A DNA stretch of 47,013 nt from a virus. Taxonomy: Duplodnaviria > Heunggongvirae > Uroviricota > Caudoviricetes. Every line of letters begins with the position of its first letter. Position 1 is the stretch's first letter. The position numbers and the translations under genes were made by a program. The notes beneath the pieces are model-generated. The model saw nothing but the letters and a program-made list of their open reading frames with translations. It was not told the origin of the DNA and ran no database searches. The stretch lies in IMG/VR virus record IMGVR_UViG_2541047907_000003. One strand, given 5' to 3'. This document shows positions 40,579-41,231 of the stretch, piece by piece.

Positions 40579-40588
40579 AGCCTCCTAT

Positions 40589-40606
40589 TGTTAGACTTTT
40601 CTAACA
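40589..40606. promoter_or_regulatory. palindromic operator TGTTAG-N6-CTAACA in the divergent promoter region
   Basis: TGTTAGACTTTTCTAACA read directly between the cro-like and repressor genes. Confidence 0.65.
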
Positions 40607-40655
40607 TTATTGTGCGCGGGATACCTAAGTCAAGAAAAATTAGAATTACCTAACT

Positions 40656-41063
40656 ATGGATACAAGAACCCTAGGCCAGCGAGTTCTGGCGCGACGAAAA
40701 GAATTACGCTTAACACAACGAGAAGCTGCGCGCCTCGCTGGGGTTGCTCACGTCACAATTTCACAATGGGAAAGAGACGAAACCCAGCCAGTCGGAAAAC
40801 GATTGTTTGCTTTAGCGGATGCTCTGAAGTGCTCACCTACATGGCTAATGTTTGGTGACGAAGACAAGGCACCAGTGCCGGCACAAGAACTTCATGTGGA
40901 AACAGAGCTAACTCCCAACCACAAAGAATTGATCGAATTATTCGATGCTCTTCCATCTTCCGAGCAGGAAGCCTTGCTGTCTGAAATGCGCGCAAGAGTA
41001 GAAAACTTCAACAAACTCTTCGAAGAAATGCTTAAAGCGCGTAAAAATAAATCAATAAAATAA
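40656..41063 (+). CDS. XRE-family HTH repressor (DicA/cI analog)
   Basis: 135-aa ORF MDTRTLGQRVLARRKELRLTQREAARLAGVAHVTISQWERDETQPVGKRLFALADALKCSPTWLMFG. Confidence 0.8.
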   Translation: MDTRTLGQRVLARRKELRLTQREAARLAGVAHVTISQWERDETQPVGKRLFALADALKCSPTWLMFGDEDKAPVPAQELHVETELTPNHKELIELFDALPSSEQEALLSEMRARVENFNKLFEEMLKARKNKSIK

Positions 41064-41099
41064 CATTCTTTTCAAGTGATTAGTTGCGCCCACTCTTTT

Positions 41100-41152
41100 T
41101 GTTAGACTAATCTAACAAAAAACACTTGCCTCTTATGTTAGGTTATTCTAAA
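41100..41152. promoter_or_regulatory. two more TGTTAG-N6-CTAAC(A) operator-like palindromes upstream of the dicB operon
   Basis: TGTTAGACTAATCTAACA at about 41100-41117 and imperfect TGTTAGGTTATTCTAAAT at about 41136-41153. Confidence 0.55.
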
Positions 41153-41231
41153 TTACTTTCCATCAAGACACCGCACGGTGTTCTCAGCAAACAGTTCCGC
41201 TACCCCGGCGTTAAGGGGAAATGAGGTCAGC

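What the first reader, a model, noticed from the sequence alone, without database searches (positions are those of the whole stretch)
40579..41153. Three copies of a TGTTAG-N6-CTAACA operator flanking the repressor gene
One perfect palindrome (TGTTAGACTTTTCTAACA, about 40589-40606) lies in the divergent cro-like/repressor intergenic region. Two more (TGTTAGACTAATCTAACA at about 41100-41117 and imperfect TGTTAGGTTATTCTAAAT at about 41136-41153) lie between the repressor stop and the dicB operon. This suggests one repressor controls both the lytic switch and the division-inhibitor operon, and defines the immunity specificity of the prophage.
Basis: seen in the sequence. Interest (0 to 1): 0.5.

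Follow-up and report, generated by a model that had tools for sequence, protein, structure and literature searches.

The report
DicA/DicC operators of Qin-type prophage
The three palindromes are real and are almost certainly the binding sites through which a Qin-type prophage's repressor (DicA) and its Cro-like partner (DicC) control the lytic switch and the cell-division-inhibitor operon. [quoted passage not shown]

Summary
TGTTAG-N6-CTAACA is perfect at 40589-40606 and 41100-41117, and a 2-mismatch copy lies at 41136-41153. No perfect copy appeared in any of 100 shuffles. The genes are dicC (Cro-like, 40348-40575, minus strand), dicA (135 aa, 40656-41063), and a ydfA-DicF-dicB-ydfD operon.

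The half-sites are identical to the K-12 Qin operator Oc (TTGTTAGTCATAACTAACAA). DicA binding to Oc has been shown in vivo, and K-12 has two degenerate copies at the same places around the dicB promoter.

The first site overlaps the -10/+1 of the dicC promoter. The other two bracket the -35 of the dicB promoter, and the imperfect right half of the third site doubles as the -10.

Across protein-selected relatives, half-site columns are almost invariant (3 of 36 variable). Spacers (10 of 18) and flanks vary. Distant family members carry different palindromes at the same positions.

A fourth, weaker copy (TTAG-N6-CTAA, 40640-40653) abuts the dicA start codon.

The "immunity specificity" is shared with K-12 Qin, although the two DicA proteins are only 57% identical.

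The parts
40589..40606 (.). Operator Oc: perfect TGTTAG-N6-CTAACA. It overlaps the last base of the -10 and the predicted start site of the dicC promoter, just upstream of the dicC Shine-Dalgarno sequence.
   Evidence: Same half-sites as K-12 Oc TTGTTAGTCATAACTAACAA. 11 of the 12 half-site columns are invariant in 22 distinct relatives, while 3 of 6 spacer columns vary.
41098..41119 (.). Operator OB1: a 22-bp perfect palindrome, TTTGTTAGACTAATCTAACAAA (core 41100-41117). It ends 8 bp upstream of the -35 of the dicB-operon promoter.
   Evidence: The K-12 counterpart TGTTAGCTATAGCATACA is at the same place. Half-site columns are nearly invariant and spacer columns variable in 39 distinct relatives.
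41136..41153 (.). Operator OB2: TGTTAGGTTATTCTAAAT, between the -35 and -10 of dicBp. Its degenerate right half (CTAAAT) overlaps the -10 hexamer TAAATT.
   Evidence: The same CTAAAT right half is found in family members whose other half-sites differ (PPompW, mEp460). This indicates promoter constraint on that half.
40638..40655 (.). Fourth, weak site (equivalent to K-12 'Oa'): AATTAGAATTACCTAACT, with a perfect core TTAG-N6-CTAA at 40640-40653. It abuts the dicA ATG and contains TAGAAT, a likely dicA -10.
   Evidence: 4 core matches against 0.39 expected, all in this region. Invariant in 22 distinct relatives. The K-12 counterpart is ATTTAGCATTAGCTAACT. Yun et al. report no DicA binding to Oa in vivo, so DicC is the more likely ligand (inference).
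40348..40575 (-). dicC-like gene (Cro analogue), 75 aa.
   Evidence: Pfam P22_Cro E=1.2e-12. 86% identical to K-12 DicC. PGAP calls it 'dicB transcriptional regulator DicC'.
40656..41063 (+). dicA-like repressor gene, 135 aa. It has an HTH_3 N-terminal domain and no S24 peptidase domain.
   Evidence: Pfam HTH_3 E=1.5e-14. 57% identical to K-12 DicA. Residues 1-71 match the P22 C2 N-terminal domain at E=1.3e-18.
40606..40633 (-). Predicted dicC promoter (PR analogue): TTGACT-16-AATAAT.
   Evidence: 10 of 12 matches to consensus. Same layout in K-12 (TTGACT-17-TATCTT, read).
41126..41154 (+). Predicted dicB-operon promoter (dicBp, PL analogue): TTGCCT-17-TAAATT.
   Evidence: Read by alignment to K-12 TTGACC-17-TAATCT. 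The -10 columns are almost invariant. It falls below the threshold of the scan (8 of 12), so it is inferred.
41232..41384 (+). ydfA-like gene (DUF1391), the first gene of the dicB operon.
   Evidence: Pfam DUF1391 E=1.1e-26. PGAP annotation.
42207..42258 (+). DicF small RNA.
   Evidence: Rfam RF00039, 72.5 bits, E=4.5e-15.
42433..42621 (+). dicB cell-division inhibitor gene.
   Evidence: Pfam DicB E=1.7e-39. PGAP coordinates transferred.
31266..31514 (-). rem, the antirepressor of DicA in K-12 Qin. It is the likely induction route, since DicA cannot be cleaved by RecA.
   Evidence: tblastn 100% over 83 aa. Function taken from PMC10448788.

Best explanation
The sites are the operators of a Qin-type (DicA/DicC) lambdoid immunity region. 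A dimer of the 135-aa DicA repressor, whose N-terminal domain resembles that of P22 C2, binds each 18-bp site through the TGTTAG / CTAACA half-sites. At Oc (40589-40606), the bound repressor covers the -10/+1 of the leftward dicC promoter. This shuts off the Cro-like DicC and the ydaT/replication genes behind it, as at lambda PR. By analogy with K-12, it also stimulates dicA transcription. At the rightward dicB-operon promoter, OB1 sits just upstream of the -35 and OB2 sits between the -35 and -10. Occupancy excludes RNA polymerase and keeps ydfA, DicF, dicB, ydfD, the exonuclease, xis and int silent, as at lambda PL. DicC very probably binds the same sites, and probably also the weak fourth site over the dicA start, to repress dicA when the switch flips. 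DicA has no autocleavage domain, so induction is expected to go through the Rem antirepressor encoded at 31266-31514 or through spontaneous or thermal loss of DicA activity. Shown here: the sites, their positions relative to genes and promoter-like hexamers, their identity to the K-12 operator, and their evolutionary conservation. Inferred: binding by this allele's DicA and DicC, the transcription start sites, activation of dicA, and any cooperativity between OB1 and OB2.
For: Statistics: two perfect copies against none in any of 100 shuffles. The core occurs 4 times against 0.39 expected, all within 560 bp. Gene identities. Identity with the experimentally supported K-12 operator Oc, and copies at the same two dicBp positions in K-12. 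Promoter overlap. Unbiased footprint: 80 IMG/VR loci were picked by DicA protein only. Half-site columns were variable in 3 of 36, against 10 of 18 spacer columns and 79 of 212 other intergenic columns. Fisher p=4e-4 against the other intergenic columns and 3e-4 against the spacers. Mosaic evidence: the window and K-12 are 96-98% identical on both sides of the cassette, but only 52-61% identical from the dicC-dicA spacer through OB2. The half-sites survive inside the diverged part. Orthologous loci in E. ruysiae, E. albertii, Citrobacter and Rahnella keep the sites at the same offsets with different spacers. Distant DicA-family loci and functional phages (PPompW, mEp460, phiES15) have other palindromes at the same positions, so operator and repressor change together. 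A composite pattern scan of IMG/VR found that 79 of 120 hits lie 40 nt after a DicA homologue. Literature: DicA represses dicBp and dicC, and Rem relieves it (PMC10448788). DicC ChIP-seq is strongest at the dicA/dicC locus, where the authors infer one DicC site on either side of dicA, with a TT(A/C/T)G..C(G/A/T)AA motif.
Against: No binding data exist for this DicA allele, which is 57% identical to the K-12 protein. The K-12 evidence for DicA at the dicBp sites is genetic plus sequence-based. Reg-Seq authors called the DicA site at dicB low-evidence with unknown location (PMC7567609). dicBp here matches consensus at only 8 of 12 positions and was placed by homology. OB1 and OB2 centres are 36 bp apart (about 3.4 helical turns), which is not an obviously in-phase spacing for cooperative binding. 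Yun et al. saw no DicA binding to K-12 Om or Oa, so the fourth site may not be a DicA site at all. The 80 footprint loci carry a 99-100% identical DicA, so they are closely related. Part of the invariance therefore reflects shared ancestry, although spacers and flanks do vary among them.
Confidence: 0.9

Rival explanations
1. The sites are used mainly by the Cro-like DicC rather than by DicA. DicA would act elsewhere or only at Oc.
For: The only genome-wide binding data are for DicC. Its strongest signal is at the dicA/dicC locus, with one inferred site on each side of dicA, and its motif matches the TTAG/CTAA core. DicC here is 86% identical to K-12 DicC, whereas DicA is 57% identical. The retained half-sites could therefore be tracking DicC. 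The DicA site at dicB is rated low-evidence.
Against: DicA binding to Oc was shown in vivo, with loss on a single half-site mutation. Deleting dicA fully derepresses dicBp. In lambdoid switches, repressor and Cro share operators, so this is not really exclusive of the main explanation. The DicA helix-3 residues HV(T/S)(I/V)SQWER are conserved between the two alleles.
Confidence: 0.07
2. The palindromes are relics in a decaying cryptic prophage, or are chance or structural features such as a dicA terminator hairpin. They have no current regulatory role.
For: The prophage is damaged. An IS3 splits the gene downstream of the ydaT-like gene. OB1 lies 36 nt after the dicA stop codon, where a terminator might be expected.
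Against: Chance is excluded. Half-sites are conserved while spacers and flanks drift. dicA, dicC, dicB and DicF are intact. The stem would be 6 A/T-rich pairs followed by an A-run, not a T-run, and no terminator was called there. In K-12 the loss of DicA is toxic because of dicB and DicF, so repression is under selection.
Confidence: 0.02
3. A host factor recognises these A/T-rich palindromes and is the main regulator. Candidates are YjdC or the H-NS/Cnu complex.
For: YjdC ChIP-qPCR enrichment at the dic locus (PMC9283627). CnuK9E-H-NS antagonises DicA at Oc.
Against: Those papers describe modulation of DicA action, not replacement of it. Covariation of palindrome and prophage repressor class across loci points to the phage-encoded proteins as the specific ligands.
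Confidence: 0.01

Closest known systems
Qin prophage dicA-dicC immunity region of E. coli K-12 (operator Oc; dicBp operators). Bejar et al. 1986/1988 as cited in PMC3441716 and PMC10448788; Yun et al. 2012; Ragunathan et al. 2023.
   Same: Same chromosomal prophage family and gene order: ydaT-like, dicC, dicA, ydfA, DicF, dicB, ydfD, with rem, relBE and hokD upstream. Same half-sites TGTTAG/CTAACA. Same three positions relative to dicCp and dicBp. A 135-aa repressor without a cleavage domain.
   Different: The DicA allele is only 57% identical, and the cassette from the dicC-dicA spacer through OB2 is only 52-61% identical in DNA. OB1 is a perfect 22-bp palindrome here but carries 2 mismatches in K-12. 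ydfB and ydfC are replaced by a 121-aa gene of unknown function. There is no recognisable counterpart of K-12 'Om'.
Phage P22 immC region (C2 repressor, Cro, 18-bp operators at PR and PL).
   Same: The DicA N-terminal domain is homologous to the P22 C2 DNA-binding domain (E=1.3e-18). DicC belongs to Pfam P22_Cro. Both have a divergent repressor/cro layout with operators on both sides of the repressor gene. P22 also uses 18-bp symmetric operators (my own recollection, not tested here).
   Different: There is no C-terminal S24 autocleavage domain. The half-site sequence differs. There is one strong and one weak site on the PR side and two on the PL side, rather than three and three.
Lambda CI/Cro with OR/OL; the PL operon carrying the division inhibitor kil.
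   Same: Same circuit logic. The repressor gene lies between a cro-side promoter and a leftward early operon that carries a division inhibitor, recombination genes, xis and int. K-12 shows bistability with the Cro analogue.
   Different: The repressor fold and size differ, and the operators are unrelated in sequence. No SOS cleavage. No evidence of octamer-mediated looping.
Gifsy-type prophage repressors that are inactivated by antirepressors.
   Same: A short, non-cleavable repressor is relieved by a small prophage-encoded antirepressor (Rem in Qin). rem is present here.
   Different: No LexA box was found near rem. The signal that induces Rem is unknown.

Membership tests
Qin-type DicA/DicC immunity region | Divergently transcribed Cro-like gene (P22_Cro family) and short (about 135 aa) HTH_3 repressor gene. 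| tested here: met
   (P22_Cro E=1.2e-12; HTH_3 E=1.5e-14). (57% and 86% identity to K-12 DicA and DicC).
Qin-type DicA/DicC immunity region | Operator (T)TGTTAG-N6-CTAACA(A) overlapping the dicC promoter. | tested here: met
   Compared with the K-12 Oc sequence given in PMC3441716 and read.
Qin-type DicA/DicC immunity region | Operator copies flanking the -35 of the promoter between dicA and ydfA (dicBp). | tested here: met
   Conserved in orthologous loci.
Qin-type DicA/DicC immunity region | Downstream operon ydfA ... DicF RNA, dicB, ydfD. | tested here: met
   (DUF1391, DicB, DUF1482). (DicF, 72.5 bits)..
Qin-type DicA/DicC immunity region | Sequence-specific binding of DicA (and DicC) to the sites, and repression that depends on them. 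| not testable with these tools
   Known only for the K-12 allele. Supported here only indirectly by conservation and covariation.
Qin-type DicA/DicC immunity region | Cognate antirepressor Rem encoded in the same prophage. | tested here: met
   rem at 31266-31514, 100% identical over 83 aa to the PGAP-annotated Rem.
LexA-like, RecA-cleavable phage repressors (lambda CI, P22 C2) | N-terminal HTH domain homologous to that of P22 C2 or 434 repressor. | tested here: met
   (E=1.3e-18 to 1adr; residues 1-71).
LexA-like, RecA-cleavable phage repressors (lambda CI, P22 C2) | C-terminal S24 peptidase/oligomerisation domain with an Ala-Gly cleavage site. | tested here: not met
   no Peptidase_S24 hit, and the protein is only 135 aa. 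PMC10448788 states the same for K-12 DicA.
LexA-like, RecA-cleavable phage repressors (lambda CI, P22 C2) | Three tandem operators at both OR and OL. | tested here: not met
   one strong and one weak site on the dicC side, and two sites on the dicB side.

The most novel reading that the evidence does not exclude
Two linked ideas. First, the TGTTAG class of operator is shared by DicA alleles that are only 57% identical, and by an 86% identical DicC. Co-resident Qin-type prophages of this class would therefore cross-repress each other's dicB/DicF operons and form one shared immunity network. Second, the switch is asymmetric. DicA uses a single strong site at dicCp. The invariant weak fourth site over a leaderless or short-leader dicA start (40638-40655) would be a DicC-preferred operator that shuts off dicA, playing the role of lambda OR3.
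Probability: 0.35. Interest if true: 0.35.

Novelty: already known. Interest (0 to 1): 0.15.

Why it matters
It matters little beyond annotation. The result lets the 135-aa 'helix-turn-helix domain-containing protein' found in about 10% of complete E. coli genomes (563 of 5426) be annotated as a DicA-type repressor. It also assigns that protein defined operators and promoters.

Comparative evidence here fixes the location of the DicA/DicC sites at dicBp. For K-12, Reg-Seq authors still rated that site as low-evidence with unknown location.

The family-wide table of palindromes against repressor sequence is a small resource for predicting which Qin-like prophages are homo-immune or hetero-immune. 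The four classes are TGTTAG, CCTTAG, ATTGAG and TAACTT. The same table helps predict which strains can cross-regulate their toxic dicB/DicF operons.

Tried and rejected
1. Terminator reading of OB1. Rejected: the stem is weak and A/T-rich, it is followed by an A-run, and no terminator was called there.

2. A structured RNA in the highly conserved leader 41160-41231. The fold is no better than shuffles (z=0.47). Rfam finds only DicF and the IS3 ALIL pseudoknot.

3. A LexA box near rem as an SOS link. No convincing box was found, and matches across the window are at the chance level.

4. The 2-mismatch hit at 37107-37124. It is consistent with the chance expectation of about 1 and was not pursued.

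5. Phased DNA looping between Oc and OB1. The spacing is 511 bp in the window, K-12, E. albertii and E. ruysiae, but 518 bp in Citrobacter and 502 bp in Rahnella. These differences are not multiples of a helical turn, so there is no support.

6. The original Bejar/Cam papers (PMC311701, PMC338298) are not held in the library. The historical Oc/Om/Oa and dicBp operator assignments are therefore cited second-hand from PMC3441716 and PMC10448788.

7. Structure prediction of the DicA C-terminal domain was not run. It would have needed an expensive homologue search and would not change the verdict.

8. The pattern-based IMG/VR scan is biased, because the half-sites are fixed by the query. I used it only to measure how often the pattern sits next to a DicA gene. 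The conservation test was repeated on loci chosen by protein alone.

Full report
**1. The observation**

- The sequence and pattern searches confirm the finding to the base.
- TGTTAGNNNNNNCTAACA is perfect at 40589-40606 (TGTTAGACTTTTCTAACA) and at 41100-41117 (TGTTAGACTAATCTAACA). No perfect copy appeared in 100 dinucleotide-preserving shuffles of the window.
- Allowing two mismatches adds the reported imperfect copy at 41136-41153 (TGTTAGGTTATTCTAAAT). It also adds one unrelated hit at 37107-37124, which fits the chance expectation of about one.
- Five of the eight TGTTAG hexamers in 47 kb belong to these three sites.
- The site at 41100 is in fact a 22-bp perfect palindrome, 41098-41119.
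- The 8-base core TTAG-N6-CTAA occurs four times in the window, all inside the immunity region, against 0.39 expected. The fourth copy, 40640-40653 (AATTAGAATTACCTAACT, 40638-40655), abuts the repressor's ATG.

**2. What the genes are**

- The 75-aa ORF at 40348-40575 (minus strand) is a P22_Cro-family protein, 86% identical to K-12 DicC.
- The 135-aa ORF at 40656-41063 is an HTH_3 protein, 57% identical to K-12 DicA over its full length. Residues 1-71 match the P22 C2 N-terminal domain (E=1.3e-18). There is no S24 peptidase domain.
- Downstream on the same strand lie:
  - a DUF1391/ydfA-like gene (41232-41384);
  - a gene of unknown function;
  - DicF RNA (42207-42258, Rfam 72.5 bits);
  - dicB (42433-42621);
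  - ydfD;
  - an 823-aa exonuclease, xis and int.
- Upstream of dicC are a ydaT-like gene and a gene split by an IS3 element.
- Further left are relBE, hokD, rem (31266-31514) and a Q antiterminator.
- In complete genomes the same DNA lies at the Qin site next to rspB. This allele of the 1.15-kb region is present at 80% coverage or more in 563 of 5426 complete E. coli genomes.

**3. Comparison with the known K-12 system**

- Yun et al. (PMC3441716) give the K-12 operator Oc as TTGTTAGTCATAACTAACAA. They show DicA-dependent repression through it in vivo, abolished by one A-to-C change in the right half-site.
- The K-12 sequence has Oc at the same place relative to dicC as in the window.
- Downstream of K-12 dicA the sequence reads TGTTAGCTATAGCATACA, 13 nt, TTGACC, 4 nt, TGTTAGTCATGGCTAATC. 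This is the same two-site arrangement around a -35 hexamer as in the window (TGTTAGACTAATCTAACA, 8 nt, TTGCCT, 4 nt, TGTTAGGTTATTCTAAAT).
- Ragunathan et al. (PMC10448788) show four things. DicA represses dicBp. The antirepressor Rem relieves this repression. DicA lacks the RecA cleavage site. DicA and DicC behave as a bistable CI/Cro-like pair.
[quoted passage not shown] Its palindromic motif is TT(A/C/T)G ... C(G/A/T)AA, which is the core of the sites described here.

**4. Anatomy and mechanism**

*dicC promoter.* On the minus strand a good promoter, TTGACT-16-AATAAT, spans 40633-40606. Oc starts at the last base of its -10 and covers the expected start site, just upstream of the dicC AGGAGG. 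This is simple occlusion of the PR analogue.

*dicB-operon promoter.* On the plus strand, alignment with K-12 places dicBp at TTGCCT (41126-41131), 17 nt, TAAATT (41149-41154).
- OB1 ends 8 bp upstream of the -35.
- OB2 fills the spacer, and its right half overlaps the -10.
- That overlap explains why the third copy is 'imperfect'. The same CTAAAT right half occurs in PPompW and mEp460, whose other half-sites differ. That half is therefore constrained by RNA polymerase rather than by the repressor.

*Fourth site.* It contains TAGAAT 10 nt before the dicA ATG, and dicA has no Shine-Dalgarno sequence.
- This suggests a leaderless or very short-leader dicA transcript, as for lambda cI from PRM. 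This is inference only.
- Yun et al. found no DicA binding to the K-12 equivalent (Oa), so DicC is the more likely ligand. This is also inference.

**5. Evidence that the sites are functional in this allele**

(a) *Footprint on loci chosen by protein alone.*
- 80 IMG/VR loci were selected by DicA protein. They gave 22 distinct upstream and 39 distinct downstream intergenic sequences.
- Half-site columns were variable in 3 of 36 cases. Spacer columns were variable in 10 of 18, and all non-half-site intergenic columns in 79 of 212.
- Fisher p was 4e-4 against the non-half-site columns and 3e-4 against the spacers.

(b) *Mosaic structure.* Nucleotide identity between the window and K-12, by segment:

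| Segment | Identity |
|---|---|
| ydaT-like gene | 98% |
| dicC | 81% |
| dicC-dicA spacer | 61% |
| dicA | 52-60% |
| dicA stop codon to OB2 | 56% |
| Leader, immediately after OB2 | 96% |

The diverged immunity cassette ends exactly at OB2. All 12 Oc half-site bases and the left halves of OB1 and OB2 are nevertheless unchanged inside it.

(c) *Orthologous loci.* E. ruysiae, E. albertii, two Citrobacter species and Rahnella keep the sites at the same offsets with different spacers.

(d) *Covariation across the family.* Distant members keep the architecture but change the palindrome:
- CCTTAG-N6-CTAAGG in PPompW and E. hormaechei. These have the same helix 3 as the window's DicA but a P22-like helix 2.
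- ATTGAG-N4-CTCAAT in mEp460 and relatives, whose helix 3 is SGSSISLWES.
- TAACTT-type sites in phiES15 and relatives, whose helix 3 is SSVSVFKWEN.

(e) *Pattern scan.* Of 120 IMG/VR contigs carrying the composite pattern 'perfect site, 16-20 nt, TGTTAG', 79 have it 40 nt after a DicA homologue. The rest are unrelated contigs.

**6. Immunity specificity**

- The claim that the sites 'define the immunity specificity' is right in kind, because different family members have different half-sites.
- This class is not private to the prophage. It is shared with K-12 Qin and several other species, although the DicA proteins have diverged to 57% identity.
- The recognition-helix segment HV(T/S)(I/V)SQWER is conserved between the two alleles, and DicC is 86% identical.
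- I infer that the two alleles are homo-immune. This has not been tested.

**7. Rivals**

- *Chance* is excluded by the statistics above.
- *A terminator role for OB1* is unlikely.
- *DicC rather than DicA as the ligand* is not really an alternative, since lambdoid repressor and Cro share operators. It remains possible that the dicBp sites have stronger evidence for DicC than for DicA.
- *Host factors* (YjdC, H-NS/Cnu) modulate the system but do not explain the covariation.

**8. Verdict**

- The feature is already known: it is the operator set of the Qin-type DicA/DicC switch.
- The increments from this analysis are modest:
  - a fourth weak site;
  - the explanation of the imperfect third site as a combined operator and -10;
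  - a perfect OB1 in this allele, against a degenerate one in K-12;
  - comparative support for the location of the dicBp operators;
  - a table of specificity classes in the family.
- Interest is low.

Noticed in passing
window 40638-40655: A fourth operator-like site, AATTAGAATTACCTAACT (perfect core TTAG-N6-CTAA), abuts the dicA ATG. It contains TAGAAT, and dicA has no Shine-Dalgarno sequence, which suggests a leaderless or short-leader dicA mRNA like lambda cI from PRM. It is invariant in 22 distinct relatives. Its left half changes with the operator class in distant family members (AATTAG here, AATTAA in L010).
   Followed up: partly
window 38047-39337 (ALIL pseudoknot 38905-39021, minus strand): An IS3-family element (orfA 38976-39302, orfB 38089-38979, Rfam ALIL frameshift pseudoknot at 120 bits) splits the 321-aa gene downstream of the ydaT-like gene. 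The dicC-side (PR-like) operon of this prophage is therefore disrupted, while the immunity and dicB modules are intact.
   Followed up: partly
window 41160-41231: The 5' leader of the dicB operon is 96% identical to K-12, although the operators and dicA just upstream are only 52-61% identical. It contains two small inverted repeats (ACACCGCACGGTGT 41168-41181; CCCCGGCGTTAAGGGG 41203-41218). The RNA fold is no better than shuffled controls (z=0.47), and the reason for the conservation is unexplained.
   Followed up: partly
window 40100-41450 versus L001 (K-12): There are sharp mosaic boundaries. The diverged immunity cassette runs from within dicC to the base after OB2 (about 41159) and is flanked by 96-98% identical DNA. 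This is a textbook immunity-region swap in which the operator half-sites were retained.
   Followed up: yes
window 31266-31514 (minus strand): The rem antirepressor gene is present (100% identity to the annotated Rem). No LexA box or DicA-type palindrome lies upstream of it. Only an isolated TTGTTAGTCAT half-site lies inside the coding sequence (31432-31437), which is probably chance.
   Followed up: partly
L225 (PPompW), L007 (E. hormaechei): These DicA homologues have the same helix 3 as the window's DicA (VAHVTISQWERDETQP) but a P22-like helix 2 (SQAALGK...). Their operators are CCTTAG-N6-CTAAGG rather than TGTTAG-N6-CTAACA. The outer two operator positions may therefore be read by helix 2 or the N-terminal arm.
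   Followed up: no
window 35478-36962 (minus strand): A 495-aa 'P-loop ATPase, Sll1717 family' gene sits next to a truncated ISEsa1 transposase, inside the prophage between ydfW and the DUF977 gene. K-12 Qin lacks it at this position. It may be an inserted cargo or defence gene.
   Followed up: no
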